Notes: a model not told the origin generated them from the sequence alone. 64,000 nt of DNA from a virus (IMGVR_UViG_2974512537_000001:17077-81076); one strand, 5' to 3'. Counted from the first letter of the stretch, positions 23,150 through 58,747 are shown. Numbers and translations are program-made.

Positions 23150-23209
23150 TTTAGGCTTGCAAAATTAAGCAACATGTGCTATTATAATAGTATCGAAGGA
23201 GGAATTATT

Positions 23210-29355: not shown

Positions 29356-29418
29356 TGTTTCTCACCATTCCTTTTTATTGTTTTTGATATGTACCCCACA
29401 CAATGTGTGGGTTGTTAA

Positions 29419-29889
29419 CTAATTCTTGTCGATAGGTGCTTGTGAAGCAACGGGTGCTTCCGAACTAGCACTTGCTTGTGAGGTTACAGGAGCGCTCGAA
29501 CTAGCGCTCTCTGGTAACTTATCAGCCGGTTGTGATTCGTTAACGTGCTTCTTTGCTTCTTCTAGCGTTTTTTGAGCCTCAACCAATTTATTCAACAGGT
29601 CTTGTTCGCTCTTTGTTAGGCTATCAGAGTTGCTCTTAATATCGTTACCGACATGTTCAAGGATAGAGTTATCCGTGACAGTACCGACAAATGTAAGCAC
29701 AGAACCAACAATGGTGAATACCATCAATACTTCACTATTGTCAATTTTCAATCCAAAGAATGCCGAACCAACAGCTAAGCCAATGATAAAGATAGAACCA
29801 ATGACTTGTAACCAGTAGCTAGGCTTGTCCTTGTTAGCTTCATACGTTTTTACGAACTGTGAAATAAAGTTGTTAAATGCAGTTTTCAT
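29419..29889 (-). CDS. holin-like membrane protein
   Basis: Two TM helices, charged/low-complexity tail, in the lysis cassette. Confidence 0.65.
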   Translation of the reverse strand: MKTAFNNFISQFVKTYEANKDKPSYWLQVIGSIFIIGLAVGSAFFGLKIDNSEVLMVFTIVGSVLTFVGTVTDNSILEHVGNDIKSNSDSLTKSEQDLLNKLVEAQKTLEEAKKHVNESQPADKLPESASSSAPVTSQASASSEAPVASQAPIDKN

Positions 29890-30215
29890 TTTTTGTTTTG
29901 CCCCTTCCATAGTGACCGTAACTCTTCATCATGTCTTGCGATTGTGACTTTGATTTCACCAATCTCTTCTGAGTGTTCTTTCAACGCGTTTGTAAACATT
30001 GTAGAACTTTCTTGTTGTGACGCCGATAATCGGTTAATTGTTTCACCTAAGTCGCTGATTTTATCCATCAACGGGTCAACGATGACTCGTTTAAACAACC
30101 AAGATATTAATGATACAAAAGCGCTTATGATGGCAATTAATTCCACCCACTCGTTTAAATTATATCCGAGGATAACATGTGGAGGAACCGTAGCAATAAT
30201 GTTACCTAACAGCAT
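29886..30215 (-). CDS. single-TM + coiled-coil lysis-cassette protein
   Basis: TM LIAIISAFVSLISWLF followed by heptads; between lysin and holin. Confidence 0.6.
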   Translation of the reverse strand: MLLGNIIATVPPHVILGYNLNEWVELIAIISAFVSLISWLFKRVIVDPLMDKISDLGETINRLSASQQESSTMFTNALKEHSEEIGEIKVTIARHDEELRSLWKGQNKK

Positions 30216-30230
30216 AGTGTTCCTCCTCCA

Positions 30231-31625
30231 TTATTTGATAATCAGTCTTTGGCCGGGATAAATCGTGCTATACATTGAAATTCCGTTTAGGCTAGTGATG
30301 TTGCTGATAGTAGTTCCGTGGTTGTTGGCAATCTTCCATAGGCTATCACCAGACTTAACTGTGTAATAGGTATGAGAAGCACCAACAACACGCTTGCCGT
30401 AGCTTTGACCACCGTTTACGCCTAATGCGATATAACCATAACGGCCGTTAGAACGTGAATATCTCGCCCAGACATAATCAGACTTGATAATCACTTGATT
30501 GTACTTAACACTTTCACCCTTGTAATAGGTCGCTACCTTAGCGTAGTTAGTACCGGCACCTGTACGGACGTTTAAAGTCGTGTTAGGATAGAACGTACCA
30601 TTTTGGTTGTAGGTTTGGCTAGTAGCCTTGTGGCTGTTAGCTGGTTTAGCGTGTGAGCTAACATTTTGTTTTGCAACGTATTCAGCTAACGTCCAGCCAA
30701 TGACGGTTTTGCCGTTCTTTAATAATACCATTTGGTTAGATTTACCTTGCGTTACTTGCTTGATTTGACCAACGGTGTAGGTCTTCTTTAAAGCAGAACT
30801 AGCAACTGAAACCTTAGAATCGCCAACGTTCCATTTAGCTCCACTGGACTTAATCTTGACCTTATCGCCAACCTTAAATCCACCAACGTAATATTTCTTT
30901 ACGTTTTGTTGACTCGCGGAACCAGAACCAATCCACCATTTAACAGGGTGCTTAGCTGTGATGACCTTGCTGGTATCTACGCCTCGTCCAAGACTGGTTG
31001 AGTAACCAGAATCCGTGTACTGCCACATGGAAGTGTTGCCGTTGAGGTAGCGGTTACTATAATTGGCTTCCCAGAAAGCGTCATAGTTGGCCATGCTTCT
31101 AATATAGCTGTTGTAGAAGTAGCTACCAGAATACAGGATAACTGGACGACTCGTTAAACGTTGCATTTCTGCGCCCCAAGACTTAACGGCACTGGCATAG
31201 GAACCACTGGTAGTAGTATATTCTTCGGCGTCATTAACAAAGAATTTGGCGTGCTTAGCACGGTTATAAAGGTCACGGGCTTCTTGCTTGGCGTCAGAAG
31301 CGTTCACATACCGTGAGTATGAATAAACGCCATATGGCGTCCCAGCCTTTTCTAGGTTAGCGATTGTGTTCTGGTATTGAACATCTTTATAATTAGAGCC
31401 ATACTGAACACGCACAATCACAAATGACGTTTCAGACTTCAAGGCTAAGGCTTTTTGGTAGCTTACATAGCCTTGCCATTCTGAAATATCAATGACCTTT
31501 TTAACAACAGCGCCGTGACTGGTGTTAGCGGCACTAGCGTTTTGTGGACTGACAGCAGAGGCAGATAATCCTAACGATAATGCCAAAGCAGTACCACATA
31601 ACAAATGCTTTAGTTGTTTTTTCAT
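30231..31625 (-). CDS. endolysin: signal peptide, GH25 muramidase, SH3b, LysM
   Basis: VIDISEWQG, DAEE, MWQYT; LNVRTGAGTNY SH3; YTVKSGDSLWKIA LysM; start at ATG 31625. Confidence 0.9.
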   Translation of the reverse strand: MKKQLKHLLCGTALALSLGLSASAVSPQNASAANTSHGAVVKKVIDISEWQGYVSYQKALALKSETSFVIVRVQYGSNYKDVQYQNTIANLEKAGTPYGVYSYSRYVNASDAKQEARDLYNRAKHAKFFVNDAEEYTTTSGSYASAVKSWGAEMQRLTSRPVILYSGSYFYNSYIRSMANYDAFWEANYSNRYLNGNTSMWQYTDSGYSTSLGRGVDTSKVITAKHPVKWWIGSGSASQQNVKKYYVGGFKVGDKVKIKSSGAKWNVGDSKVSVASSALKKTYTVGQIKQVTQGKSNQMVLLKNGKTVIGWTLAEYVAKQNVSSHAKPANSHKATSQTYNQNGTFYPNTTLNVRTGAGTNYAKVATYYKGESVKYNQVIIKSDYVWARYSRSNGRYGYIALGVNGGQSYGKRVVGASHTYYTVKSGDSLWKIANNHGTTISNITSLNGISMYSTIYPGQRLIIK

Positions 31626-31746
31626 TTTGTCGTCCCCTTTTGTGTTTTTGTGTTTTTGTTTATTGATAGTTTTAAAAATAAAATTCAAATTTTATTCTAA
31701 ATTAAGATGAGTGCCTTTAACTTGTGCTTATTCAATTGTCTACCTC

Positions 31747-32259
31747 CTATTTTAATATGTCTTCTGGTGCCAGTGAGTATGGCGTTGCAGTGGTTCCTTT
31801 CTCTAATTTCAAGAACCTAACATATACGTCCATTGTTCCATAAAAATCAAAAGCATATCCTTTGCTATTAAATGAAGTCGTTCTTGAAACCCGTTGCCAA
31901 TCATTAGTTGGAGTCATGCTGGCCATCTGTTCGGGGTCTTCCCAATTTTCCCAGCCTAGTCTGCTAACTATACCGGTTCCTTTAACCTCGGCCGAGATAA
32001 CATACTTTCCGGTTGTTGGAAAATTAAACCACCTATAAAATCCTGAACTATTGCTAGTGCCAATGACATGTAGCGCTACTTCACCACTGTCCATTGTGAC
32101 TTTCTGGATTGTACCGCCCGAGTTATTAGTAATGCCACCAAATGAAAAATCATATGAACCACTAATCAGATTTCGCCCGTAAACTTGCTTGCCATTGCTG
32201 AAAACCTTGTCAACTGCCTTGCCATCTTTAATCCATGCACCATGTGTTATATCTGCCAT
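31747..32259 (-). CDS. tail accessory protein with carbohydrate-binding-like domain
   Basis: GRNLI... and LKLEKGT.ATPYS.APED CBM-flanking motifs. Confidence 0.65.
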   Translation of the reverse strand: MADITHGAWIKDGKAVDKVFSNGKQVYGRNLISGSYDFSFGGITNNSGGTIQKVTMDSGEVALHVIGTSNSSGFYRWFNFPTTGKYVISAEVKGTGIVSRLGWENWEDPEQMASMTPTNDWQRVSRTTSFNSKGYAFDFYGTMDVYVRFLKLEKGTTATPYSLAPEDILK

Positions 32260-32264
32260 TTAAA

Positions 32265-32771
32265 TCACCCCTGAATCACGTATAAACCAGTTTTGTCGGT
32301 TAATGAATCATACTGTTCTTGGGTAACGATTTTAACAGTATTGGCAACAATAGTATTAAATTTATTAACAAAATCATCAAAAGAAATCGTAGTAATCGTG
32401 CTACCATTAGCGCTCTGAATGTTATTATTGATTGTGAACCCTGTTAAAGCACCACTAGGGTAGATAGCGACCCCACTATCATAAGTTACCCAAACCTCTA
32501 ACAAGTAAGAACCTGCTGGAAGCCCACTCATAAAATCAGAGTCAAACTTAATGACTACTTTACCAGACAATGGGTCTTGAATATTATCAGATGTAATTGT
32601 TTGCGATTTTAGGTAGCCCGTGCTGTTACCTAGCTTGGCAACAATGCTCTTTGCGTTAGTGAGGTCAACAGGATTGCTATCTTCACCCAATACCATCACA
32701 AAACTGGTAGTCGTGTCGCCAATTTTTACGGTTTGAGCGGAAGTGTCAGTAAATTCTAATGTTTTTGCCAA
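32265..32771 (-). CDS. BppU-like baseplate protein
   Basis: VDLTNA, G.V.I.F, LPAGSY.LEVWV...G..IYPS. Confidence 0.7.
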   Translation of the reverse strand: MAKTLEFTDTSAQTVKIGDTTTSFVMVLGEDSNPVDLTNAKSIVAKLGNSTGYLKSQTITSDNIQDPLSGKVVIKFDSDFMSGLPAGSYLLEVWVTYDSGVAIYPSGALTGFTINNNIQSANGSTITTISFDDFVNKFNTIVANTVKIVTQEQYDSLTDKTGLYVIQG

Positions 32772-32787
32772 ACTAAATCATTCCTTT

Positions 32788-33210
32788 CTACCGCTTGTCA
32801 AAGTCAACGTCTAACGCTTCACATAACGCGTCATAACACATTGCTTCATCACCAGACACGTTAATGTCGGCATGTAACAAAAAGTCTTGACAGTCTTCTT
32901 TATGGTGTGAATAAGTGGCCTTTTCAATTTCGCCGTTTTCCATCATCAGTTCAAAATAAGCATTTTTGAAGGCTTCCCCGTTTTCCGGGGTAAATTGATA
33001 TTGGTCGTTTTTGACAATCAATTCGCCATTGTCATCTTTTGAAGCGTATTCCTTAATCATGTCGGCTTGAAGACCGGCAATTTCCTCGTTTTTGTCGGCC
33101 AACATTTTAATCAGTCGTGTTCGAGCGATTGATTGATAACCAGCAAGTGGCAACCGTTTTAAAAATTCAATTGATGGTGCAACGAATTGATTTTGTAATT
33201 CAAATTTCAT
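32788..33210 (-). CDS. DUF1617-like phage protein
   Basis: SIARTRLIK, YA.KD.NGE signature. Confidence 0.65.
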   Translation of the reverse strand: MKFELQNQFVAPSIEFLKRLPLAGYQSIARTRLIKMLADKNEEIAGLQADMIKEYASKDDNGELIVKNDQYQFTPENGEAFKNAYFELMMENGEIEKATYSHHKEDCQDFLLHADINVSGDEAMCYDALCEALDVDFDKR

Positions 33211-33223
33211 AATTTAAACCCTC

Positions 33224-33445
33224 CTATTTTGCTTCATCGGTCGGTCTTAATGCTGTTAAACTGTCAATTAATGTGTTCAACACTTTTAGTTTAACATTAT
33301 CAACACCACCCACAATAGCAGTATTAAACTCGTCCATGGCAATGCTTACTTGTGAACTGATTGCTAGACTATTAATCTGAATACTAATGGTCATGATATT
33401 GTTCGTATAATCTGGTTTATAGTTCGTAATCAAAATGTTATCCAT
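33224..33445 (-). CDS. hypothetical tail-region protein
   Basis: Coupled to the tail fibre gene. Confidence 0.6.
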   Translation of the reverse strand: MDNILITNYKPDYTNNIMTISIQINSLAISSQVSIAMDEFNTAIVGGVDNVKLKVLNTLIDSLTALRPTDEAK

Positions 33446-36400
33446 TTAATTTTGCCTCCAATTCTAATAAATGTCCGTTTAGCTTATCAATTTCCTTTTG
33501 TTGTTCTTGTATAGTTGCTAACATAGCATTTTGAAGTACGATATTCTCAATACCGGATAGCTTTCCATCTTCATCACGTGCAACAAAGATGTCTGGTAGA
33601 TTCCATTGCTTGTCCTCGTTAACATCATCAACAATCCCTGATAGTCTAAGGTTGCTGGTATTATCATCATCTTTATACTGGTAGGTTGCTAGGTCGATTG
33701 AGTTAACTAACTGCGCCCAATAAGCTGTATCAGTCTTTTTAACGCCCTTCTTCTCAGATAACAGCGATTTAGATACAGACCCCTGATAGTTTAGACTAGC
33801 TACATTTAAGTCAGCTCTTCCACCTTTACCTGAGTTGATATAAAGTCCCTTACCATCTTGCATAGTAATAGAATGAGCGGTGTTAATACCAATATTACCA
33901 ACCTGTATATTACGTTTAAATTCAGTGTAGTTTGAACCAGCCTTGTCAATACCAAAGTTAATAATCTGATTGCCGTTAACGTCACCAATCCGCCACCAAG
34001 CAGAATCAGATTGTCCACGTATGTTACCATACGCGTCCATAGTCATTCCGTTGCTACCAATATTACCGGATTTACCAGCGAAGTTTATTTGTTGTGTTGG
34101 CCCATATAGATAGATTCCTGTGGCTGGCGTCACATCAACATAACCCGTGATTGTTTGCGGCTTATTGAAGTCTGAATCCTTAGATGTTGTATATCCAGAC
34201 TGTGAGTGGAATCCTTGACCGTCCAATGCCGAATTATAAGCGGTGAAGTGTCCGTCACTACCGGCTACCATTGAGCGGAACTTGTGTTGCAACCCCCCAG
34301 ATTCGATGATTGATTGTAACCCAACCATCTGGTCGTAGAACGTTGTCTTGTATGTTCCGTTAGACTCAATGGTCATTGGATAAAAATGAGAAGTGTTGTG
34401 TTGGTTATTGATAACGTCCCCACCGTGGAAAGTTGCACCGTTGATGGTTACGCCGGTAATTGTACCGGCATTTATTGTTGGCGAATACAATTTACCGCCG
34501 TTAAGCGTCATATCCTTAGCCGTTATCGCACCATTTTGGCTTACCGTAAAAGTTCCATTGTTGGTCGTGAAAGTGTTAGCCGCAATATCAGCCGCTGTCA
34601 ATTTTTTGCCAACAAGGAGCGTGTCGATATTAGCACTTTTCATAATAACGGGGTTAGCACTATCAAGGAAAACGCTATTGGCAGACAATGTCAGTTGACC
34701 ACTAGATGAAATCAAAGTTTTACCAGCTTGAAGATTAATCTGGTCAAGCAAACCATCTTTAGTAACTCTAAGATTAATATTATCAGACATCTGAGAAATC
34801 ATTGAATCTTGACCACCATATACATAAGGTGTCGCAGTGTCACCGGGTTCCATCTTTAGTTCAGTAAAGAACAAACCAGAAGAAGCTCCGTTATTAGAAC
34901 CTATATTATCGACCCTGATATAACCTTCATTATCATTGGCCCCAGTTGTAAATGTAACTGTGTACTGGTCAATGTGCGATGGAGAAGTCACTAAACTCGT
35001 GAATAGTCCGTGAACGGTGTCGTAGTCTTTAGTAGAACCATAAGCACGTGATAAGAAATATACATTAGCTCCAACAACGTTAGACGAGGCAAATGCTTTA
35101 AATTGGAACGTATATTTAGTGTTTGGTAATACTGAAAAGCGCAATGAACCAGCGGCAGAAGTTGCATTTTGTGCTGTATAGAGTTGTAATAGCTTTCCAG
35201 TTCCATTTTGATAGAAGTTATGGGTCACTGCTAATAGTTGCTTATCAGTTGCGCCCCACGCCATTAACTGCCAACCTTCTAATGAATCTGAAAAATTACT
35301 AGAGTAAGGTATTAAATTAACATTGTTAGCGTCTTTCTTAGAAACCTTGCTTAAAATCGCGTTATCAGTTTGCGATTTATATGAATTAAAGTCCGTAGAT
35401 GTAACTTTCGAGGCAATCTGTTGAGCAGTTGTAGTTTGATAAGCCTCAAAGTCTTTGGTAGCTACCTTTTGAGAAATTAAATCAGCCGTTTGTGATTTGT
35501 AAGTTGAAAAATCGCCGTTACTTACTTTTTCGGCAATTAATTTATCCGTCTGTGTCTTATAGGTATTAAAGGCGCCATTGCTTACCTTATCTGCAATTTG
35601 GTTAGCGGTTTGCGTCTTATCTGATTGATAAGTGCCATTATCGACCTTAGAATCAATCAATTTATCAGTCTGCGTTTGATAAGTCTTGAAGTCATCGGAG
35701 GACACTTTAGAAGCGATAGCGTTAGCCGTCTGTGTTTTATCGGATTGATAAGTTCCATTATCGACTTTAGACGCAATCAATTCTGCGGTTTGATTTTGGT
35801 AAGTCTTAAAAGCACCATTATCAACTTTCTGTCCGATTAACTCATCGGTTTGAGTTTTGTAAGAATTAAAGTCGCCGCTACTTACTTTTTGGTCTATCTG
35901 ACCACTCAACTGTGTGATTTGAGAGTTAGTAGCTTGGTCTTCGGGGTTGACCGAATAATCAGTAGCTACACTACCTTTTTCAAACTTAGCTTTAAAATCA
36001 TTATATTTTCTAAAAGATACTCTAACATATGCCGTGGCAGAAGTGGTGGTTAAAGTTTTAGATACATGTTCTGTTGTATCCGCAGATTGCGTAGCCCCAG
36101 CTCCAGAAGGCCGTGAAATAAATTTTTTGTCAGAGTCGTATTGTCCAATGCCATACCAGTAGTAGTTTCCTTTCGGAGTAGTGCCCCACATTTGAAAAGT
36201 GTAGGCAGAACTAGCACTCACCGGAATATAATCAGACGCTATTTCATTCTGGAAAGAAGAAGCTGGGTCAACATTTCCAGTTCCACTATCTATATACCCA
36301 GATGTAGCCGTTGATTGCGAAAACAGGTTGGTTCCAACTGTGCTATTATTCACCTGTGTTTGCAATGTTTGAAAATCCTTAGATTCAACCTTACTAATAA

Positions 36401-37877: not shown

Positions 37878-37889
37878 TTAAAAACCTCC

Positions 37890-40277: not shown

Positions 40278-40329
40278 TCCATTACCTCCAAATCGTTATT
40301 TTATGTACCGAGGGTTTCCCCTCGTGAAA

Positions 40330-42108: not shown

Positions 42109-42176
42109 TGGTCAAACCCCCTATAAAATGTGTTTTTTATTGCGAATATGTACACGAGGGTTGCCCCTCGTATAAC

Positions 42177-45100
42177 CTAGTTAATCAAGTTGTTGTATCT
42201 TGCTTTAGCTAGGCGTTGTGCTTCAACAGCGTCTACGACACTTTGAGAAGCAACGTAAGCAACGTTTGGCGTATTGTTTGATGACAAGATAGCTTGCAAT
42301 AATGCGTTCGTTTGCTGGATAGCGACCGCAATCTGGTCGAGCTTTTCGCTATCAGCAGACTTTACATTTTGAGTATCTACGGTAGTAGCAACGTTCCCGC
42401 TTTCGAGATAACTAATTGATTGCTTCAATTGACGAATTGCGGCGTCTTTGTTGGTCAAAGACACAACCATTTCTGGTTTGTTGTGTTCCGCAATGTTAAT
42501 CATTTGAGCTTTGTCAACAAGTCCGCCATGTTCCATACCCTTAATGTAGCGGTATACAGCAGAGGCGTTCCGCAGACGAGCACCACCAGAAGCGTCCATG
42601 TTACCACCGGATTCCCAAGTTGCAAAGAATCTTTGAGCGGCGGCAGTAGGATTTGTCATTCTCAATACGGATTTTAACATGCCGTTTGCGCCGGGTTCAT
42701 TTAAGGCATAGCCAATCTGACCAGCGGCAGAGTTCCATGCGTAGCCATGTCTTCTTAACCAGTTACGTAGCCCAGTTTCACGAGTGAACGTCCACTGACC
42801 CAAACCAGTACCGTGGTCACTGGCGTTGACGGCGGAAGGGTTCAAGTTGGATTCTTGAATCCAGTTACCTAAGATACCGGCAATACCACCGTTATTTGAA
42901 GCTGGATAAGCCTTTTTGAACGCTTTAGCTAACGCCCGTGCGCGTGAAGCAACGCTACCACCGAGCTTGACGTTACCGACAAGTTGTTCATCTTGGCCTG
43001 CTTTTAACATCTTTTTGAACCAGCTAGTAAGGGAGTGGATAACAATATCACCAGTCATACCAACAGCTTTAGCGGCGATACCACCACCCTTTGCCAGAGC
43101 GTTTAATGGTGAGGCAATCATAGCTGATAAATACTTAGCAGGTGATTTAATCATCTTACCTAAGTTATCAATAAGTTTAGAAGCTTTAGTTTTAACTCCA
43201 GAGAACCAGTTACCAACGCCATGAACGGCGCCGCCAATAGCGCTACCAATACCATCTAACCAACCAGTTGCAGAAGCGAATGCTGGGATTTTACCACCAT
43301 TGTGTTCAAGGTAAGGCTGGATTACTCTAGCGTCTTCACCTTTGGCGATTTCCGTACCTTTTGGCAAGTTTACAATGATATTGCGCTTGTTAGGGAACAT
43401 ACCCATGCGGCCATCTGGTAGCTTATAAGCTTCACGCCAGTAACGTGACTTGGCGTCATTTACTAACGCTGGGCCTCCCGGCGTACCTTTAGCGTAGGTG
43501 CTTAGCTTAGCCGAACCGTAACTAGCTGTGCTAAGTCTAAAGCTCTTGCCAACACCGATTTTCTTTTCGACACCGTTAATGGCTCCGGCAACGGCATTCC
43601 AACCTTTAACAACAGGGTGAATAACACCATTGTTAACAATTCCGGCCATTGCGTTCCAGATACCATGCCATGCACCTTTTAGTGCGCCGGAAATCCGACC
43701 CGGCAACTTCTTAAAGAAACTTGCCATGTTATTACCGAATTTAGAGATATTTTTCCAAATACCCTTAATCCAGCCGCCGATGGTGTTAGATACATTTTTC
43801 CATGCTTTGGCAACCGGTGATAGCAAGTTTCTGAACCACTTAGTCACATTTTTGTAGATTTTTTGAGCCCAACTACCAATCGCATTAGAGATAGATTTCC
43901 ACCATCTACCAGCAGTTTTGGAAATTGATTGCCAAGCCTTAGCTACGGGGCTTAACAGCCTTCCGACCCACTTAGTAGCAGTTTTGTAGAGATTATGAAC
44001 CCAGCGACCAACAGTTCCTGATATGTTCTTCCACCATTTTTCAGCAGTTTTAGAGATGGAATGCCAAGTTTTAGCCAATGGACTTACTAATTTTCCAATC
44101 CATTTAGTGGCGGTGTGGTACATATCCTTAACAAATTTTGTGACAGTTTTTAAAGCGCCACTCCATGCCTTAGAAATGCCTTTACCGATTTTACCCATCG
44201 TTTTTTGAATTGGTTTGACCATATTGTCAATGGTCTTACGAACGTCCTTGGCCCATCTTCCAATTGTCTTGCCGACCTTAGAGAAGATTTTGCCCATGCT
44301 TCCGAGAGCCTTACCAATTCCCTTAAATAACTTGACTAAACCGATTGCGGCTAACTTTCCGGCAATTGCTCCTAGGGCGGCAATAAACTTGCCAATACCC
44401 TTAACCACACCGGCAATATCCTTGCCAATCGTTACAATTGACTTACCAACTGGGCTGGTCTTAAACCACTTACCAATTTTCTTAAAAGGTGTTTGAATTG
44501 CCTTAACTGCTGGAGCAAAGAACTTACCAATCCCCTTAGCCCAGCCTGACATGGTTTTACCGACACCGGCCAGCATTTTAGAGATTGATTTTCCGATACC
44601 TGTTTTGCCAAGACCAGAGAACATCTTACTAAATGCTGAACTGATTGATTTGCCAAGACTACTTAAACTAGGCATTTTAAGCCCTTTGAACAATCCGCTA
44701 AACCACTTACCAATTCCACTAATTTTAGGCAGTTTAAAGTTCTTAAACATTTTGCCAAAGTTAGGCATTTTAAAGCCTTTGAACATTTTATCAAAGTGAA
44801 TACTTGGTAGCTTTAGCTTACTAATCCACTTACCAATGCCACCAAACCAATCACCGATTGATTTTTTAATAGTGGACATTTTAGGCATTTTGAAGTGTTT
44901 CATGGACTTCTGGATTTTTTTACCTAGTTTTCCGCCCCAGTCGCCACCTTTGTCACCACCGATAAAGTTACCGGCAAGTCCACCAACGGTAGAACCAATC
45001 TTAGCACCGGCTACTGTCCCTGCCGGGCCAAAGAAAGTACCAAGTCCACCACCGACTAGACCACCAACACCAGTACCGATAGCACCAGCGCCGACTGAAC

Positions 45101-47840
45101 CGGCCAATTGGCCAACAGTAGAACCAATCTTTTCGCCAGAATTATGTTTATTCATACCGATGAGGTTAGTTGCGGCAAAGGCAGTTTGGAGCCAAGGAAC
45201 ACGTTTAAGGAGGCCGCCAGTACCCCGTGCTAGTTTACCAAGCTTGGAGCCGGTAGTACCAATCCTACCAACTCTTGATGAGATAGATTCGGCGTCTTCT
45301 GTGGTCGTTTGACCTTTAGCCATACGCTTTAGGACAGACAATTTAGACCGAGATTTCTTGGCCGCCTTGTATTCCTCACGGGTTCCAACAGATTCTATCG
45401 TGGAACCACCTTTTCCGCCCCGTCCTTTAGAACCGCCACCGACACCAGCTCCGGCTTCTGACGCTTCTGCTCCAGCGGCTTCTCCGGCCTCGCCCCAAGC
45501 CGCCGCAAGAGCTTTAACAGCGGCCGTTTGTTCGTTAATTGCGGCTATGGCAGATTTACTTGAACTGGCAGTTTCAATCTTAGACTTGCTGAATAGTTTA
45601 GAAATAACGGTAGCGATTGTTCCTGAATTACGAATGAAAGCGGCAATTACACCAGTAACAGCACTAATTGCTGGAACCAATAGAAGCGTTGCTCCGGCGG
45701 CTTTTTTAGCGGAAGGACTTAGCTTATCAAACTTATCCATTAATCCGGTCAGCGCCTTAGCGCCTTTGGTTAAATATGGAAGTAATACGTTTGCAAACTC
45801 AATCTCTAAAGCTTGAAAAGTGACCTTAAACTTGTTAAACTGGTTTTGCGCAGTTTCCATGTTCTTTGCAGATAGACCACCAATGTAGTCATTTTTTGCA
45901 GACCTAGCAACCTCGTCATTAAGTTTTCCAAGTGATTTATAATTATCAGTTAAGATACCACCGGCTTGTTGACCAGTCGTACCAAAGATTGCATGGAACA
46001 CGTCAGTACGGTCATGACCAGATAAGCCCTTCATGTGACGGTTCAAAATGCCGAAGATTTCCGACATTGACTTCATCTTACCGTTCTTATCTGTAAAACT
46101 ACTTGTTGATAATCCTAATTTCTTCAAAGCGCCAGTAGCGTTATCAGTAGGAGATACCAATGAGTTAATCGTCTTACGTAATCCAGTACCAGCCTTGTCA
46201 GATTCCAAACCGTTGTTGGATAAAATACCCATGGCACTAGCAGTTTCGGAAATACTAAATCCAGCTTGGTGAGCTGTGTTACCAACGTATTCCATACCTT
46301 TACCTAAACTCTGGAAGTCGGTAGCCGTCATATCAGCGGCGTAGGCCATTTCATTAACGACCTTAGCCGTATTCTTAGCCATTTTACCGGTGGTATTCGC
46401 TCTTAGACCGAATGATTCCAAAGTCTGCGTAGAAACGGCTGTGACGTCATTAAAGTCATCACCAGTGGCGATAGCACCTTTAACCAACGTCTTCATCGCG
46501 CCTACCGCCTGTGATGAACTATAACCACGTTTGATTAAGTCTTGATAGCCATCAGCAATTTGTTTTTGCGTCAAACCATATTCCTTAGAATAAGCTTTGG
46601 CGTTTTCTTTCATTTTAGCGAGGTTACGATTAATCTCTTTGGTTCCTTCTGTGTTAGACTGAACGATTAAGTTCTTAGTCTTTGTAAAAGAAGCCTGTAA
46701 TGAGGTTGCCATCGTAACGCCTTGCTTAGTCACAGCGGCAAGCCCTAAGGTTGCATAACCAGTACCACGAGAAACAGCAGACATCGCAGTGGCAACGCCA
46801 GAATATTTTTTCTGCATACCACCAATTTTGTCGCTGAATGAGTTTATCGCTGTACCAGATAGGCCAACACGCTTGTTTAAAGAACGGATTTTTGATTCCG
46901 TTGCCCCAATTTTCGCACCTAGTTCGTTGACCTTTTTAGCTTGCGTTGAATAAGCCGCACTTGTTTCGCCGGAACGTCTTTTGACTAACGCCAATTCAGA
47001 CGCTTCGGTCTTGTATTGAGCCATTAACCCTTTACGAGAACCAATTAATGACTTCAATTCTACCGCCATTGCAGAGTAATTCTTGCCCTCTGCTCGCAAT
47101 CTTGAAGCAAGCGACTGCGATATTTCCGCAGTTGACTTAGAATACTGCTCCATCTTGTGTAGGCCAGTAGAATACTTACGCTGTTCCTCACGGGCTTTAG
47201 CGTAAGCTTCACGAGCTTTTGATACAACGGCAGACTGTTTGTTAATATCAACGTTAGATGAACTAGCGCTAGATTTTAACGCCTTGAATGCCTTTTCCTC
47301 ACGACCGAGTTCATCTTTTAAAGCAGATGTCTTGGCCGCCAAGAGTTGTTTATGTTTGGCGCTTGCTTGTTCCTCTTTGCCCTCTGCTAGTAAAGCCTTT
47401 TCGTTTGCCTCAATCGCACTGGTATAAGCTTTATGCGAGGTTTTGGCCTTGTCGATACCAGTTGAGAATCTGATTTCGGCGGCACGTGCACTTGCCAATT
47501 CGCTTTGACGCCGTTTCAACGCCGCATTACTTCGGGTTAATTCGTTCGTCCAGCGCATAACCGCAAGTTTTTCCTTGTCAGTTTGAGCATTGGCATGTTT
47601 TAAGGCGTCAGCTAAACGCTTGTTATAATCAGATTGTAGCTCAATTTCTTTGTTAAGTCCTGTTATCTTGGCTTCCAGAGCACTTGCACTGTCACCAGCG
47701 GCTTGCATTGCAGAAGCGTTAGAGCGCCATTCGTGGCCTGTGGAGCGAATAGCTCCTTTTAACGTACGCAGGCTTGATTGAGCCTTGGTATCGTTAATAT
47801 TAACATTATATGTTAAGCTACCATATGCGGCCTGTTTCAT
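42177..47840 (-). CDS. tape measure protein with C-terminal lysozyme-like domain
   Basis: 1887 aa; TP901-type core; W/F periodic repeats; GILGNWIQES...GLGQWT. Confidence 0.92.
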   Translation of the reverse strand: MKQAAYGSLTYNVNINDTKAQSSLRTLKGAIRSTGHEWRSNASAMQAAGDSASALEAKITGLNKEIELQSDYNKRLADALKHANAQTDKEKLAVMRWTNELTRSNAALKRRQSELASARAAEIRFSTGIDKAKTSHKAYTSAIEANEKALLAEGKEEQASAKHKQLLAAKTSALKDELGREEKAFKALKSSASSSNVDINKQSAVVSKAREAYAKAREEQRKYSTGLHKMEQYSKSTAEISQSLASRLRAEGKNYSAMAVELKSLIGSRKGLMAQYKTEASELALVKRRSGETSAAYSTQAKKVNELGAKIGATESKIRSLNKRVGLSGTAINSFSDKIGGMQKKYSGVATAMSAVSRGTGYATLGLAAVTKQGVTMATSLQASFTKTKNLIVQSNTEGTKEINRNLAKMKENAKAYSKEYGLTQKQIADGYQDLIKRGYSSSQAVGAMKTLVKGAIATGDDFNDVTAVSTQTLESFGLRANTTGKMAKNTAKVVNEMAYAADMTATDFQSLGKGMEYVGNTAHQAGFSISETASAMGILSNNGLESDKAGTGLRKTINSLVSPTDNATGALKKLGLSTSSFTDKNGKMKSMSEIFGILNRHMKGLSGHDRTDVFHAIFGTTGQQAGGILTDNYKSLGKLNDEVARSAKNDYIGGLSAKNMETAQNQFNKFKVTFQALEIEFANVLLPYLTKGAKALTGLMDKFDKLSPSAKKAAGATLLLVPAISAVTGVIAAFIRNSGTIATVISKLFSKSKIETASSSKSAIAAINEQTAAVKALAAAWGEAGEAAGAEASEAGAGVGGGSKGRGGKGGSTIESVGTREEYKAAKKSRSKLSVLKRMAKGQTTTEDAESISSRVGRIGTTGSKLGKLARGTGGLLKRVPWLQTAFAATNLIGMNKHNSGEKIGSTVGQLAGSVGAGAIGTGVGGLVGGGLGTFFGPAGTVAGAKIGSTVGGLAGNFIGGDKGGDWGGKLGKKIQKSMKHFKMPKMSTIKKSIGDWFGGIGKWISKLKLPSIHFDKMFKGFKMPNFGKMFKNFKLPKISGIGKWFSGLFKGLKMPSLSSLGKSISSAFSKMFSGLGKTGIGKSISKMLAGVGKTMSGWAKGIGKFFAPAVKAIQTPFKKIGKWFKTSPVGKSIVTIGKDIAGVVKGIGKFIAALGAIAGKLAAIGLVKLFKGIGKALGSMGKIFSKVGKTIGRWAKDVRKTIDNMVKPIQKTMGKIGKGISKAWSGALKTVTKFVKDMYHTATKWIGKLVSPLAKTWHSISKTAEKWWKNISGTVGRWVHNLYKTATKWVGRLLSPVAKAWQSISKTAGRWWKSISNAIGSWAQKIYKNVTKWFRNLLSPVAKAWKNVSNTIGGWIKGIWKNISKFGNNMASFFKKLPGRISGALKGAWHGIWNAMAGIVNNGVIHPVVKGWNAVAGAINGVEKKIGVGKSFRLSTASYGSAKLSTYAKGTPGGPALVNDAKSRYWREAYKLPDGRMGMFPNKRNIIVNLPKGTEIAKGEDARVIQPYLEHNGGKIPAFASATGWLDGIGSAIGGAVHGVGNWFSGVKTKASKLIDNLGKMIKSPAKYLSAMIASPLNALAKGGGIAAKAVGMTGDIVIHSLTSWFKKMLKAGQDEQLVGNVKLGGSVASRARALAKAFKKAYPASNNGGIAGILGNWIQESNLNPSAVNASDHGTGLGQWTFTRETGLRNWLRRHGYAWNSAAGQIGYALNEPGANGMLKSVLRMTNPTAAAQRFFATWESGGNMDASGGARLRNASAVYRYIKGMEHGGLVDKAQMINIAEHNKPEMVVSLTNKDAAIRQLKQSISYLESGNVATTVDTQNVKSADSEKLDQIAVAIQQTNALLQAILSSNNTPNVAYVASQSVVDAVEAQRLAKARYNNLIN

Positions 47841-47851
47841 TTAAAAACCCT

Positions 47852-47885
47852 CCTTGCAAAAAACAAGCCCGCCAAAGCGAACTTA
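47852..47885 (-). terminator. intrinsic terminator-like hairpin before the TMP gene
   Basis: AAGTTCGC-TTTG-GCGGGCTT then GTTTTTT. Confidence 0.55.
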
Positions 47886-47914
47886 ACTAACAAAAATAAG
47901 TAAAAACAATAACA

Positions 47915-48136
47915 TTACCCCTCGGCAATGTTATCTTCTAACCAGTACCCTAAAGGAACTACCTCATCGTCAGAACCAGAACCATCGCTGTTGTCATCAA
48001 CAGATAGCATTTCTAGTAAATCAAAATAATTGGTTTCCTCTAGGTTGTTGAACGTGTCTTGCTTTTGAGCAACTAATGCTTTTTCAAGACGATTAATCTC
48101 GTCCAGCGTTTCCTGAAACGTCTGCGGTTCCGCTGG
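47915..48136 (-). CDS. tail assembly chaperone C-terminal extension (gpT-like), no own start
   Basis: TFNNLEETNYFDLLEML gpT-like motif; +1 frame overlapping the end of the chaperone gene; no SD-supported start. Confidence 0.6.
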   Translation of the reverse strand, partial: PAEPQTFQETLDEINRLEKALVAQKQDTFNNLEETNYFDLLEMLSVDDNSDGSGSDDEVVPLGYWLEDNIAEG

Positions 48137-48491
48137 GCGTACTGTCGTCTTCGTCACCGTCCACAATCTGGTCAATGTGCATAACCTTTTGAATGATTTG
48201 AGCGAACAACTCATCGGTCTTATCTGAATCCAAGTCTTCAAGTTTATCAATTTGTGATTCTGATAAACGCAACATGTCAGCAATATATTCGGTGGTTGCT
48301 TCGTTAGCTTCGTACTGGTTCTTTAAGAACGCACTGTAAGCTTCTTCATCGGTCATGTTTTCGGCGTCAATGTTACCTAACGCTTCTAACTTCATTTGCA
48401 CCTTTAACGTCTTTTTGATATTTTTGTTAGTTTCGTTTACTTCAACGGGCTTGCGAATACCTAAGTCTTTTGCATTGATTTTGACAGTCAT
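48093..48491 (-). CDS. tail assembly chaperone (gpG-like)
   Basis: Between MTP and TMP; GAGGAG SD before ATG 48491. Confidence 0.8.
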   Translation of the reverse strand: MTVKINAKDLGIRKPVEVNETNKNIKKTLKVQMKLEALGNIDAENMTDEEAYSAFLKNQYEANEATTEYIADMLRLSESQIDKLEDLDSDKTDELFAQIIQKVMHIDQIVDGDEDDSTPSGTADVSGNAGRD

Positions 48492-48620
48492 GTGAATCTC
48501 CTCGTCTTTCATCTAATATTTTATTTTTGGATATGTACACACACACCCCAGACGGGGCATGTAGGTGATTATTCAGCCTCAATTGTTACATTACTCACAC
48601 TAGGAGCAACCTGAGCTAAT

Positions 48621-49238
48621 TTAGGCTTGGCCGCCGCTACTCGCAACAGCATTACCCGGAAATACGAAGTTAGTCCAATCTTCAATTTTGAAAGTGTCCT
48701 TGGCTTCGTCACCTTTAGCATAAGCGGCCTTATCAGATTGACGGTTAACACCAGTAAACGTTAATGAGTCTGGTGCCAATTGTTCTGATTCGGTGTTCGT
48801 TTGCATGTTGTGTTCTTCCAGACCGAAAGTACCTTTCAATAAGGCGAAGTGTAACTTGTTGTTCAAACGGCCGTGGGTGATAAATTCAATAACTGAATAT
48901 GGCGCACGGGTGTCTGACGTAACAACAGAGAAACCTTTTTCATTGTCAACACCAGTAATAGCGTCAATGATGTCTTCTGGAATATCGTTAGCACCAACAG
49001 TTGCTTGAACAGACCCAACACCTTTACCAGACGTTTCAACGACCATGTCAGAACCGTAAATCTTAGTCATCGTTGGAGTAAGACCAGTAATATTACCGAC
49101 CGTCATACCTTGTGCGGTAGTTGAGTCTAACGTGTACACACCAGTCGTACCAATTGCCGTGTTTGTCGTATCAACTTGTTCCTTGTCTGTTTCAAAGATA
49201 GCAAGCCGAGCGCTATCAATACCTTTGGTTTTTGCCAT
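48621..49238 (-). CDS. major tail protein
   Basis: Position; ITGL.P, YS.IEF, FALLKG.F pattern of phi13-type MTPs. Confidence 0.85.
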   Translation of the reverse strand: MAKTKGIDSARLAIFETDKEQVDTTNTAIGTTGVYTLDSTTAQGMTVGNITGLTPTMTKIYGSDMVVETSGKGVGSVQATVGANDIPEDIIDAITGVDNEKGFSVVTSDTRAPYSVIEFITHGRLNNKLHFALLKGTFGLEEHNMQTNTESEQLAPDSLTFTGVNRQSDKAAYAKGDEAKDTFKIEDWTNFVFPGNAVASSGGQA

Positions 49239-49257
49239 TATTGATTACCTCTTTCTT

Positions 49258-49635
49258 TTAATAAATAGTTTTCTTAAAGTGATAGGTTGAGTAAAGTTGT
49301 GAAGTCTTTGGCTCACGGTCAACACCGCCACCAATTGTTTGATACCAACCGTTATGTCGTAGCATGTTACGAACAGGGCGCTCATATAAAGCTGTGACAT
49401 CACCCTTGATACTTAGTGGGTAAAAGAACTGTACCTGTACCGTACCATCGTCAGCGATTATATCATCGCTACCGAATTTGCTAGGAATCCGTGAAATATC
49501 ATTTACTAAAATGACTATTTTATTCTTAACTGACGCCTTAATATGGTCAGGAAGACCATACGCAAAAACGTATTTAGGGTCGATTCCATCAATGTTAGCG
49601 TCCCTGATTAATTGTTTAACGTCATTTGAAATCAA
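49258..49635 (-). CDS. tail terminator / completion protein
   Basis: Position; VQVQFFY, D.EP.T. Confidence 0.7.
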   Translation of the reverse strand: MISNDVKQLIRDANIDGIDPKYVFAYGLPDHIKASVKNKIVILVNDISRIPSKFGSDDIIADDGTVQVQFFYPLSIKGDVTALYERPVRNMLRHNGWYQTIGGGVDREPKTSQLYSTYHFKKTIY

Positions 49636-49638
49636 ATC

Positions 49639-50091
49639 TTACAACCCCTTTGCCTTAAAAATAGCCTTAGCTGTTTGAGTTTGCGCGGCAAAGATTTGGT
49701 CATACGGCATGGTTTCAACGGACTTTTCAAACCAGAACTGTGCAGGCTGACGATATGTTCCCCAATCAGTCCAAACGGCAATTGGATAAGCCTTTTGCTC
49801 AAACCCTAATTCAGTGCCGCCATCAATAAATTGGTTCGGTTTATGCGTGATATGGTCACGCAAGTGCCCGATTGATTTTCCATATAGTTTTTTATTACGA
49901 ACATCTTCAAATTCATCATAAGGTGTGCTATCATATAGGTGCTTTTCAGCAATCGGGATAGCGGCTTCAACAATAGCTGAACGTTCCTTACGGGTTAATT
50001 TGAGCTTATCTAACTGCCTTAATAGTTCGTCTTCACCAGTTACCTCAATTGAACCTAATCCGCTAGTGACCAATTGTTTTTTAGTCGCCAA
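49639..50091 (-). CDS. HK97 gp10-like tail component
   Basis: HLRD.I, GT..Q.AQ.WF; TTG start at 50091. Confidence 0.7.
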   Translation of the reverse strand: MATKKQLVTSGLGSIEVTGEDELLRQLDKLKLTRKERSAIVEAAIPIAEKHLYDSTPYDEFEDVRNKKLYGKSIGHLRDHITHKPNQFIDGGTELGFEQKAYPIAVWTDWGTYRQPAQFWFEKSVETMPYDQIFAAQTQTAKAIFKAKGL

Positions 50092-50500
50092 ATGCGCCAC
50101 CCCCAAATGAATCGGAAATACCAGACGAGCCACCGTTCTTAATGACTGATTTCAACGATAATAAGTCATACGATACGATTGCGGCGGTATCTGGTACGAT
50201 GTAGGTTACGATATAATACTTCTTTCTGAATCTAGCTCGGTAACTATCATAGTCAAAGTTTGGTCTGTGTTTAACGGCAACTACGATTGTATCTTCGTCA
50301 TTCATTCCGTCAACACTCGTAATATTCCTATCTGATACTCGATATTGTGCGCAATGAAAAGTATACTTAACATCAAATGTATCGTCATTAATATCCGCTC
50401 CAGAGTTGATAATATTTCCGTTGTCAAGCTCTACCCACGAGTCGTTTGTGCCGAGTTCTAATTTTTCTTTGTAACGCCATAGGTCAACCTTATTTGCCAT
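50081..50500 (-). CDS. head closure / head-tail adaptor
   Basis: Position; DTI.VAV.H pattern. Confidence 0.7.
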   Translation of the reverse strand: MANKVDLWRYKEKLELGTNDSWVELDNGNIINSGADINDDTFDVKYTFHCAQYRVSDRNITSVDGMNDEDTIVVAVKHRPNFDYDSYRARFRKKYYIVTYIVPDTAAIVSYDLLSLKSVIKNGGSSGISDSFGGGAFGD

Positions 50501-50516
50501 CTTATCACCCCACTAA

Positions 50517-50804
50517 CTAGATTGAGAAGTTTCTACCATAATTCATAATGGTTTCTAGTGAGGAGGAATTAACAGTGCCACTGACGGGTGCTCCGTCACG
50601 TTTCAAGTATAGGGTCGTAGCAACTTCTAATACGGCTCTATCTACGATAGCCTCAAATTGTTTTTCACGAACACCCTCGAATTGACCGGCAACTCTTGAC
50701 ACGTAAAAATTGACGTAGTCAACAGCATGGTTAAAATATAAATCAACATCTTCATCAGAATCTGCGTTAATTTGATTCTTAAAGTCATCAATTGTCACTG
50801 ACAT
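50517..50804 (-). CDS. head-tail connector (gp6-like)
   Basis: FKNQIN.D..ED, AV...A..LY..R. Confidence 0.75.
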   Translation of the reverse strand: MSVTIDDFKNQINADSDEDVDLYFNHAVDYVNFYVSRVAGQFEGVREKQFEAIVDRAVLEVATTLYLKRDGAPVSGTVNSSSLETIMNYGRNFSI

Positions 50805-50846
50805 CTATTACAACACCTCCTATGTACGCCCCAAAACGGGGCAAGA

Positions 50847-51323
50847 TTATTGAGCTGGTTTTTGAGATGGAGCAACTGGAGTTCCTTTTGCTTCATCTGA
50901 TTTTTCAGAGTCGCCAGCGGCGTTTGTGCATACACCTTGCAGTGTATATTCAGTACCATTTGTTAAGCCGTCAACCGAGCCGGTTAATGACGTACCGAAA
51001 TCGGCAGTGCCGTTGTTCCCATCTGCTGTTTTCCAGTAAACAGTGCGCTTAGTGACCGCTGTACCGACATTCTGACCGTCAGAGAAGGTGACATCTAATT
51101 TACCATCACCAGCGCTAACCGCTAATGACGGCTTGCCGGGCACTTGGTTAGTGGTTGTAAAGTCACCAATCGTTGTCTTTGCACTTTCACCAGTATAGGC
51201 AATCTTATAACCAGAATACTTAGTGGCTGGAGTGAGTCCATTGATAGTAACTGGGGACGGTTGATTAGTTACAATCTTCTTATCCGTGTTGTCGTAAACA
51301 TCAAAATTCTTTGTCAAGGACAT
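50847..51323 (-). CDS. FN3-domain virion accessory protein (truncated FN3 + complete FN3)
   Basis: GLTPATKY and GLTNGTEY FN3 signatures; domain 1 starts at the strand-C equivalent. Confidence 0.75.
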   Translation of the reverse strand: MSLTKNFDVYDNTDKKIVTNQPSPVTINGLTPATKYSGYKIAYTGESAKTTIGDFTTTNQVPGKPSLAVSAGDGKLDVTFSDGQNVGTAVTKRTVYWKTADGNNGTADFGTSLTGSVDGLTNGTEYTLQGVCTNAAGDSEKSDEAKGTPVAPSQKPAQ

Positions 51324-51445
51324 TTCCTCCTTATCTTTGTAAATATGTACGCCCCCTCAAAAGAGGGGGTTGTTATCAAGTTTATTCGGCCGCAACTTTT
51401 ACGCTACTCACATCTGGAGTAACCTTAGTGACCTTTGGTGACGGA

Positions 51446-57131: not shown

Positions 57132-57250
57132 ATCACCTCATTATATGCTATAATGTAGACTGTAAAATCTACATTTTATGTACTCTCGGCCTAAAATAAC
57201 ATGGAAAGAAAACACCGAGAAGCGTTTTGCTTTATTGTGATTAAGCTACA

Positions 57251-58742: not shown

Positions 58743-58747
58743 ATTAA

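What the first reader, a model, noticed from the sequence alone, without database searches (positions are those of the whole stretch)
29388..51370. Recurrent hairpin + (G)UACAUA element in late-operon intergenic spacers
Minus-strand TACATA lies 0-2 nt 3' of (or overlaps the base of) a stable hairpin with no U-tract at six spacers: 51344-49 (CCCCCTC-TTTT-GAGGGGG; capsid/FN3), 50821-26 (GCCCC-GTTTT-GGGGC; FN3/connector), 48532-37 (MTP/chaperone), 42147-52 and 40302-07 (near-identical CGAGGG-GNAA-CCCTCG on both sides of Dit), and 29388-93 (CCCACAC-ATT-GTGTGGG; holin/recombinase). The hairpin sequences differ but the geometry and motif are kept. This fits a cleavage site whose upstream product is protected from 3' exonucleases. 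It would set virion-protein stoichiometry, since the capsid, FN3 and MTP messages each end in such a hairpin.
Basis: partly seen in the sequence, partly recalled or inferred. Interest (0 to 1): 0.85.

Follow-up and report, generated by a model that had tools for sequence, protein, structure and literature searches.

The report
MazF cut sites punctuating phage operon
A Lactobacillus plantarum phage has removed the six-letter cutting motif of the RNA-cutting toxin MazF (UACAUA) from its genes, yet keeps it between genes just after a protective RNA hairpin, and it carries its own MazF gene, which looks like a built-in plan for cutting long messages into stable pieces.

Summary
All six sites hold. 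In total, 14 of 14 sense-strand non-coding TACATA copies in the window follow a hairpin by 0-4 nt. TACATA is the top hairpin-adjacent hexamer genome-wide (10/30 against a 1.5% background, p=1.7e-11).

In five relatives (75-93% identical), TACATA is invariant at eight orthologous spacers, while the stems are replaced by different sequences.

UACAUA is the strict cut site (U^ACAUA) published for Bacillota MazF/EndoA. The phage encodes one intact orphan MazF (window 19268-19630). Sense coding sequence holds 1 copy against 10.7 expected; the antisense strand is not depleted.

The motif abuts a Shine-Dalgarno sequence at one site and lies 2-4 nt from tRNA 5' ends at others. No phage RNA polymerase or sigma factor was found, so a promoter reading is unlikely.

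Best reading (about 0.6): programmed MazF cleavage between cistrons, with the hairpin protecting the upstream 3' end. No RNA ends were measured, and the stoichiometry claim is untested.

L. plantarum phages without MazF are also purged of UACAUA, so a host MazF may do some or all of the cutting.

The scan noted the same pattern earlier on another phage genome (e1-5767492). I found no published description.

The parts
51344..51369 (-). Hairpin (51369-51352) + CG + UACAUA (51349-51344) between the capsid gene and the FN3 gene. Predicted cut between U51349 and A51348.
   Evidence: conserved in 6 phages with 4 different stems
50821..50842 (-). Hairpin (50842-50828) + G + UACAUA (50826-50821) between FN3 and the head-tail connector gene. 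The Shine-Dalgarno GGAGG follows the motif directly.
48532..48562 (-). Hairpin with two G-U pairs (48562-48541) + GUG + UACAUA (48537-48532) between the major tail protein and tail chaperone genes.
42147..42172 (-). Hairpin (42172-42153) directly followed by UACAUA (42152-42147) between the tape measure and Dit genes.
40302..40324 (-). Hairpin (40324-40309) + G + UACAUA (40307-40302) between the Dit and Tal genes.
29388..29411 (-). Hairpin (29411-29395) + G + UACAUA (29393-29388) between the holin-region gene and the tyrosine recombinase gene.
57177..57220 (-).
57371..57410 (-). Hairpin + CCCA + UACAUA, 48 nt upstream of tRNA-Arg.
58486..58532 (-). Branched hairpin + A + UACAUA, ending 4 nt before the 5' end of tRNA-Asn (58481).
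58664..58743 (-). Two hairpin + UACAUA modules (motifs at 58720-58715 and 58669-58664) just downstream of the small terminase gene.
59941..59966 (-). Hairpin + UC + UACAUA between a 66-aa ORF (60223-60023) and the next small late-arm ORF.
18658..18690 (+). Hairpin + U + UACAUA in the plus-strand arm. It is embedded in a promoter-like TTGACA-17-TATGCT-3 nt-TACATA arrangement.
   Evidence: same layout in phage Bacchae
61504..61529 (+). Hairpin + AGA + UACAUA in the plus-strand arm, overlapping a TTGACT-17-TAAGAT promoter-like site.
19268..19630 (+). Phage-encoded MazF/PemK endoribonuclease (120 aa). It has its own TTGACA-17-TATAAT promoter and no recognisable antitoxin. It is the candidate enzyme for the cuts.
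   Evidence: Pfam PF02452 E=1.7e-22; best solved relatives are S. aureus MazF and B. subtilis EndoA, E about 1e-19; only copy in the genome; no MazE or RHH match

Best explanation
The hairpin-UACAUA modules are programmed cut sites for a MazF-type endoribonuclease, which cleaves U^ACAUA in single-stranded RNA. They act on the phage's long polycistronic transcripts.

Proposed sequence of events:
1. The phage makes its own antitoxin-less MazF from a host-type promoter in the replication-gene arm, before late genes are read. A host MazF homologue may contribute or substitute.
2. The enzyme cuts between cistrons, and between mRNA and tRNA segments.
3. The upstream piece then ends in a hairpin plus 1-4 nt. 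That tail is too short for 3' exonucleases to load.
4. The downstream piece starts with 5'-OH ACAUA just ahead of its ribosome-binding site or tRNA.
5. Coding sequences have been purged of the motif, so only the intended sites are cut.

What is shown: motif identity, geometry, conservation, strand-specific purge, and presence of an intact MazF.
What is inferred: actual cleavage, which MazF does it, 3'-end protection, and any effect on protein ratios.
For: 1. Motif identity. B. subtilis EndoA/MazF cuts only U/ACAUA and leaves a 5'-OH (PMC11780869). Listeria and S. aureus MazF share this specificity (bioRxiv 10.64898/2026.08.06.743204).

2. The enzyme gene. Window 19268-19630 is a full-length PemK/MazF. 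It is most similar to the UACAUA-specific S. aureus and B. subtilis enzymes. The catalytic Arg (RPV) and Thr are invariant (their role per PMC8634880). All Tybeckvirinae relatives carry it.

3. Geometry. 14 of 14 sense non-coding copies follow a hairpin by 0-4 nt. TACATA is the top hairpin-adjacent hexamer in this genome and in phages B2 and Lenus.

4. Conservation. At 8 orthologous spacers in 6 phages, TACATA is invariant while each site shows 3-6 different stems. 42 of 55 stem positions change on both sides.

5. RNA level. The sense-strand fold is more stable than the antisense fold at 50 of 73 sites (p=2.6e-4), which fits G-U pairing.

6. Purge. Sense CDS holds 1 copy against 10.7+-3.1 expected under synonymous shuffling; the antisense strand holds 12 against 14.3.

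7. Specificity fingerprint. UACAUA, UACAUC and UACUUA are depleted on the sense strand, while UACAUG and UACAUU are hardly or not depleted. The three depleted words are the on-target and off-target sites reported for S. aureus MazF.

8. Independent lineage. MazF-bearing Heliusvirales phages of Clostridia each carry 1-2 hairpin-UACAUA-AAGGAG-ATG modules.
Against: - No RNA-end data exist for this phage.
- The specificity of the phage MazF (about 40% identical to characterised enzymes) is inferred, not measured.
- L. plantarum phages without MazF are purged just as strongly (LP65: 2 against 30.7). So the purge does not need the phage enzyme, and the host may do the cutting.
- Phage Bacchae has a MazF but few clean hairpin modules. 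MazF possession and punctuation are therefore not tightly coupled.
- The co-occurrence within Tybeckvirinae is one evolutionary event.
- Two plus-strand copies sit inside promoter-like sites, which hints at a link to transcription starts that this model does not explain.
Confidence: 0.6

Rival explanations
1. The sites are real RNA processing or binding sites, but for a different factor. Candidates are another host or phage RNase such as RNase Y, or an RNA-binding regulator. On this view the match to the MazF hexamer is coincidence.
For: The hairpin-plus-motif geometry, covariation and sense-strand purge show an RNA-level signal. They do not identify the enzyme.
Against: - Only 8 of 4096 hexamers contain the older UACAU pentamer, and exactly one is the strict MazF site.
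- The phage encodes precisely that enzyme family.
- The depletion fingerprint (UACAUA > UACAUC, UACUUA) matches published MazF on-target and off-target sites.
- RNase Y has only a weak consensus, a preference for G/A in AU-rich RNA (PMC11780869).
Confidence: 0.13
2. The module is a DNA-level late promoter. TACATA would act either as a -10-like box (as TATAAATA does for T4 late genes) or as an initiation site behind a hairpin promoter (as in phage N4).
For: - The late arm has no consensus sigma-70 promoters in its spacers.
- The sites precede many late genes.
- At two plus-strand copies, and at several in Bacchae, TACATA sits 3 nt after a -10 box, that is, at the start site.
Against: - At 50821 the Shine-Dalgarno sequence abuts TACATA. 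tRNA 5' ends lie 4 nt (window) and 2 nt (phage P2) after it. A start 6-8 nt downstream of a -10 box would therefore delete the ribosome site or start inside the tRNA.
- The sequence upstream of TACATA is not conserved; only its pairing is.
- The pairing favours the sense strand, not the template strand.
- No sigma70 region 2 or region 4_2 domain and no T7-type polymerase match was found in the complete genome. The polymerase search had no positive control.
- A hairpin-dependent promoter would not explain why the bare hexamer is purged from ORFs, including in other L. plantarum phages.
Confidence: 0.08
3. The hairpins are the functional parts, acting as stabilisers or factor-dependent pause or termination signals. 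On this view UACAUA is merely tolerated next to them, because a cut there is harmless under attack by a host MazF.
For: - MazF-less L. plantarum phages are purged too, which points to host pressure.
- Phage Sha1, which lacks MazF, has three terminator-plus-TACATA spacers.
Against: - Mere tolerance does not explain why the hexamer is invariant at 8 spacers in 6 phages while the adjacent stems are completely replaced.
- It does not explain the fixed 0-4 nt spacing.
- It does not explain why 14 of 14 retained sense copies have the hairpin.
- There is no U-tract, so these are not intrinsic terminators.
Confidence: 0.12

Closest known systems
MazF/EndoA cleavage at U^ACAUA in Bacillota (B. subtilis, Listeria, S. 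aureus)
   Same: The hexamer is identical and lies in a single-stranded context. The enzyme family is encoded in the phage. Depletion is strand-specific, with the same off-target words (UACAUC, UACUUA).
   Different: The known MazF is a chromosomal toxin held by the MazE antitoxin. It cuts scattered sites inside host genes. Here the gene is phage-borne with no antitoxin found, and the sites lie only between cistrons, each behind a hairpin.
RNase III processing of phage T7 polycistronic mRNAs
   Same: Intercistronic cuts in long phage transcripts leave a hairpin at the 3' end of the upstream message, which stabilises it (from established knowledge, not tested here).
   Different: T7 uses host RNase III, which cuts inside long imperfect double-stranded stems. 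Here the stems are 5-10 bp, the cut would fall in single-stranded RNA just after the stem, and the signal is a fixed hexamer.
MazF interplay of SPbeta and phi3T (arbitrium phages)
   Same: A Bacillota phage whose biology is tied to MazF and to UACAU(A) sites in its own transcripts.
   Different: Those phages are enriched in sites inside genes and encode MazF inhibitors (AimX, YosL). Host MazF restricts them. This phage is purged of sites inside genes, places them between genes, and encodes the nuclease itself.
Earlier scan notes on other phages (e1-5767492, e1-5357365)
   Same: Intergenic UACAUA behind hairpins together with orphan MazF genes in a large gut phage. UACAUA beside ribosome sites in a Paenibacillus prophage.
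   Different: These are different genomes and hosts. They are unchecked AI notes, used as leads only.

Membership tests
MazF/PemK endoribonuclease (protein at 19268-19630) | PemK/MazF domain over its full length | tested here: met
   PF02452 E=1.7e-22, profile positions 1-107 of 109; PHROG 1936 E=2.4e-39
MazF/PemK endoribonuclease (protein at 19268-19630) | Catalytic Arg (Arg25 of MazF-Bs, in the RPV motif) and Thr (Thr48) | tested here: met
   R33-P34 and T56 are invariant in the alignment of four phage MazFs and align with the RPV and Thr of S. aureus MazF. Their role is from PMC8634880.
MazF/PemK endoribonuclease (protein at 19268-19630) | Adjacent cognate antitoxin (MazE) | tested here: not met
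   No MazE_antitoxin or RHH_1 match in the whole genome. The upstream neighbour is an 86-aa membrane ORF. The downstream overlapping ORF belongs to an unknown family. The protein is a MazF homologue but not part of a recognisable TA pair.
MazF/PemK endoribonuclease (protein at 19268-19630) | Cleavage specificity U^ACAUA | not testable with these tools
   Inferred from about 40% identity to UACAUA-specific enzymes and from the genomic fingerprint.
MazF cut site (the RNA element) | Exact UACAUA hexamer on the transcribed strand | tested here: met
MazF cut site (the RNA element) | Motif single-stranded | tested here: met
   The motif is unpaired in the minimum-energy fold at the six sites and at nearly all of 73 sites.
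MazF cut site (the RNA element) | RNA ends at U^A with a 5'-OH | not testable with these tools
   Needs end mapping in infected cells.
Intrinsic (Rho-independent) terminator | GC-rich hairpin followed by a U-tract | tested here: not met
   The hairpin is present, but none of the six sites is called on the minus strand. The tails read CGUACAUA and similar.
Sigma-70 type promoter | -35 and -10 hexamers with 16-18 nt spacing at the six late sites | tested here: not met
   No promoter-like call at the six sites. Counts across the late arm are at chance level, 45 against 36+-5.7.
RNase III processing site (T7 type) | Long (about 20 bp or more) double-stranded stem containing the cut | tested here: not met
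   Stems are 5-10 bp and the conserved motif lies outside the stem.
N4-type hairpin promoter | Dedicated phage RNA polymerase, conserved stem and loop sequence, hairpin on the template strand | tested here: not met
   No polymerase or sigma domain found (the polymerase search had no positive control). Stem sequences are not conserved. Pairing favours the sense strand.

The most novel reading that the evidence does not exclude
A toxin-family nuclease has been domesticated by phages as a dedicated mRNA-maturation enzyme. On this reading the antitoxin-less phage MazF cuts the phage's own operons at hairpin-guarded UACAUA punctuation marks, giving stable units with defined 5'-OH ends. At the same time it destroys host messages that carry the motif. 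The layout recurs in unrelated MazF-bearing phages of Bacillota (Tybeckvirinae, Heliusvirales, and the gut phage of note e1-5767492).
Probability: 0.4. Interest if true: 0.85.

Novelty: new variant of a known kind. Interest (0 to 1): 0.78.

Why it matters
If true, this gives MazF, usually seen as a stress toxin or anti-phage defence, a constructive job in a virus: punctuating operons. It would be a Gram-positive counterpart, based on a sequence motif, to RNase III processing in T7.

It would also explain why many phages carry 'orphan' MazF genes. It offers a simple, portable RNA-processing module (a hairpin plus six bases) for tuning message stability. And it makes the idea directly testable in a harmless lactic acid bacterium.

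A separate result is that all L. plantarum phages examined avoid UACAUA in their messages. This points to MazF-type cleavage as a general selective force on phage genomes in this host.

Tried and rejected
- TACATA as a -10 box: rejected because the Shine-Dalgarno sequence and tRNA 5' ends lie 0-4 nt downstream.
- Intrinsic terminator: rejected because there is no U-tract.
- Avoidance of the pentamer UACAU: hardly seen beyond the hexamer. The count is 47 against 62.7 expected, and most of the deficit is the UACAUA subset. The signal is therefore the hexamer.
- 'The purge is caused by the phage's own MazF': not upheld. Four MazF-less L. plantarum phages (checked) are purged as well.
- The 79-aa acidic protein at 18401-18640 as a possible antitoxin: dropped. 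Its homologues occur in MazF-less LP65 and lie away from mazF in other phages.
- The small ORFs upstream of mazF in three lineages are not homologous to each other.
- Finding the host's MazF by exact peptide words: this found only distant Clostridia and one Limosilactobacillus. A prophage-like protein query found nothing. A family-wide search then showed homologues in 262 of 301 sampled Lactobacillaceae genomes, but genus names are not given, so L. plantarum itself is not confirmed. Yan et al. 2012 list a WCFS1 homologue.
- The preprint's statement that MazF is absent from the genus Lactobacillus does not fit. It probably reflects a stricter identity cut-off.
- ORF-based gene calling was unreliable for the 53% GC Clostridium phage, so its depletion statistics were discarded.
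- A complex prediction of MazF with the downstream ORF was not available for this window.


Full report
**What the window is.** The window is bases 17077-81076 of a complete 81,076-bp phage genome (CheckV completeness 100%). Over 12 kb of the late arm it is 75-93% identical to the Lactobacillus (Lactiplantibacillus) plantarum siphophages P2, P1, ATCC 8014-B2, Gut-P1, Lenus, Nyseid and SA-C12, subfamily Tybeckvirinae. Gene names used here (capsid, FN3 protein, major tail protein, tape measure, Dit, Tal, recombinase) come from those records' annotation and from Pfam. The late genes run on the minus strand from about 60250 to 28118 and end at a canonical bidirectional terminator.

Each lies 0-3 nt after the named hairpin, and each is unpaired in the local fold. 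None has a U-tract, and none is called terminator-like on that strand.

The element is also wider than reported. Eight more copies with the same geometry lie at 57177, 57371, 58486, 58664, 58715, 59941 (minus strand) and 18685, 61524 (plus strand). In total, 14 of 14 sense-strand non-coding copies in the window follow a hairpin by 0-4 nt.

Among all 4096 hexamers, TACATA ties for first as the word directly preceded by a hairpin. The count is 10 of 30 copies against a 1.5% background, p=1.7e-11. It is also first in phages B2 and Lenus. The G before the motif is only a preference.

**Comparative evidence.** In six phages I located eight orthologous spacers:
- small ORF / Zn-ribbon ORF
- TerS / tRNA
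- capsid / FN3
- FN3 / connector
- major tail protein / chaperone
- tape measure / Dit
- Dit / Tal
- holin / recombinase

TACATA is present at every one of them (the first spacer could be read in only five of the six phages). The hairpin in front has 3-6 different sequences per site, and it always ends 0-2 nt before the motif. Counting from the stem base, 42 of 55 stem positions differ on both sides between phages. Much of this is wholesale stem replacement rather than stepwise covariation. Either way, pairing is kept and sequence is not.

Folding each site on both strands shows the sense strand more stable at 50 of 73 sites (Wilcoxon p=2.6e-4). That is what G-U pairs give in RNA, but not in the complementary strand. 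The 73 sites are not independent, because orthologues are related.

**What the motif is.** Two sources state that B. subtilis EndoA/MazF cuts only U/ACAUA, a hexamer and not the older pentamer UACAU, and leaves a 5'-hydroxyl (PMC11780869; bioRxiv 10.64898/2026.08.06.743204). According to the preprint:
- Listeria MazF has the same specificity.
- S. aureus MazF prefers UACAUA, with weak cutting at UACAUC and UACUUA.

**The enzyme gene.** The phage carries a 120-aa ORF at 19268-19630 that is a full-length PemK/MazF domain (E=1.7e-22). Its best solved relatives are S. aureus MazF and B. subtilis EndoA (E about 1e-19). The catalytic Arg of the RPV motif and the Thr are kept (their roles from PMC8634880).

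The gene has its own TTGACA-17-TATAAT promoter in the replication-gene arm. It is the only MazF in the genome. No MazE-type or RHH antitoxin was found anywhere in the genome. Every Tybeckvirinae relative has the gene.

**Strand-specific purge.** Using transcription-arm-based gene calls:
- Sense coding sequence holds 1 TACATA against 10.7+-3.1 expected under synonymous codon shuffling. None of 300 shuffles was that low.
- The antisense strand holds 12 against 14.3 expected.

Pooled over three Tybeckvirinae genomes, the sense observed/expected ratios are:
- UACAUA 0.36
- UACAUC 0.49
- UACUUA 0.59
- UACAUG 0.99
- UACAUU 0.80

All antisense ratios are near 1. The three depleted words are the on-target and off-target words reported for S. 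aureus MazF. A bare hexamer that is avoided inside genes but kept behind hairpins between genes is what a hairpin-independent, sequence-specific RNA cutter would select for.

**Promoter reading.** If TACATA were a -10 box, transcription would start 6-8 nt downstream. Three observations argue against this:
- At 50821 the Shine-Dalgarno GGAGG follows the motif directly.
- At 58486 the tRNA-Asn 5' end is 4 nt away.
- In phage P2 the tRNA-Pro 5' end is 2 nt away.

If instead TACATA marked the start site behind a hairpin promoter, as in phage N4, one would expect a phage polymerase, conserved stems, and pairing on the template strand. None of these is seen. The T7-type polymerase search had no positive control, so it is weak evidence. 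Promoter-like and terminator-like calls across the late arm are at chance level.

One loose end remains. At 18685, and at several sites in phage Bacchae, TACATA sits 3 nt after a good -10 box, that is, at the expected start site. I cannot explain this. One possibility is that read-through transcripts get cut where the next transcript begins.

**Whose enzyme?** This part is open.
- Four L. plantarum phages with no MazF (checked) show the same sense-only purge: LP65 2 against 30.7, phiJL-1 0 against 5.1, ATCC8014 0 against 3.5, Sha1 3 against 7.7.
- In LP65, TACATA ranks 7th of 4096 among depleted hexamers, beside restriction sites and homopolymers.
- A UACAUA-directed activity therefore very likely exists in the host.
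- Homologues of the phage MazF (35-44% identical) occur in 262 of 301 sampled Lactobacillaceae genomes. A WCFS1 homologue is listed by Yan et al. (PMC3519753).
- Hairpin punctuation is rare in those MazF-less phages, although Sha1 has three terminator-plus-TACATA spacers.
- The MazF-bearing myophage Bacchae is purged (10 against 39.8) but has few clean modules.
- In an unrelated order, five MazF-bearing Heliusvirales phages of Clostridia each carry 1-2 clear hairpin-UACAUA-AAGGAG-ATG modules with differing stems.

**Model.** MazF cuts U^ACAUA between cistrons.
- The upstream product ends in a hairpin plus 1-4 nt. By general knowledge of PNPase and RNase R, which need a longer single-stranded tail, this should resist 3' exonucleases.
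- The downstream product starts with 5'-OH ACAUA ahead of its ribosome site or tRNA.
- The capsid and major tail protein genes each lie immediately upstream of such a hairpin.

I put this model at about 0.6. Which MazF acts is left open.

**Novelty.** I found no paper describing phage-encoded MazF as a processing enzyme, or this element in Lactobacillus phages. The scan reported a very similar layout in another gut phage (e1-5767492). I reached the MazF link from the relatives' annotation and tested it here. Those notes are not independent evidence.

Noticed in passing
whole genome, sense CDS; also phages LP65, Bacchae, phiJL-1, ATCC8014, Sha1: All L. plantarum phages examined, with or without MazF, avoid UACAUA (and partly UACAUC) on the sense strand only. 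Example: LP65 has 2 copies against 30.7 expected. This points to a host UACAUA-specific RNase as a general pressure on phages of this host.
   Followed up: partly
window 18658-18690 (+) and 61504-61529 (+); Bacchae 91910, 107181, 137047, 138598: A recurring layout of TTGACA, 17 nt, a -10 hexamer, 3 nt, then TACATA, in which the -10 forms the 3' arm of a hairpin. A transcript starting there would begin at or near ACAUA, the same 5' sequence that a MazF cut would leave.
   Followed up: partly
Heliusvirales phages PV036444.1 (38507, 30876), PV036437.1 (9916, 19404), PV036436.1 (48191, 38757), PV036442.1 (6496): Unrelated MazF-bearing phages of Clostridia carry 1-2 hairpin-TACATA-(A)AAGGAG-ATG modules each, with different stems at orthologous places.
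   Followed up: partly
window 19603-19956 (+): A 117-aa ORF of unknown family (PHROG 14545) overlaps the end of mazF and is kept next to it in the relatives. It may be an inhibitor or partner, but no antitoxin domain was found.
   Followed up: partly
window 23174-28080 (+): The DNA polymerase III alpha gene is split into a PHP part (23174-24607) and a core part (25579-28080), with a 220-aa ORF (24799-25461) in between. The same split is seen in ATCC 8014-B2. Lenus, P2 and Gut-P1 have one 3.86-kb gene. This suggests an inserted mobile element.
   Followed up: no
window 47864-47885 (-): The only terminator-like hairpin with a U-tract inside the late arm lies just upstream of the tape measure start. 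It may act as an attenuator.
   Followed up: no
whole genome, sense CDS: Several hexamers are completely absent against 23-30 expected: GGATGA, GATCAA, CGACGA, ACGACG and GAATTC. The palindrome TACGTA is depleted on both strands. This looks like restriction-site avoidance.
   Followed up: no
window 58664-58673: Here the motif is part of a perfect 10-bp palindrome, TATGTACATA, so it reads TACATA on both strands.
   Followed up: no
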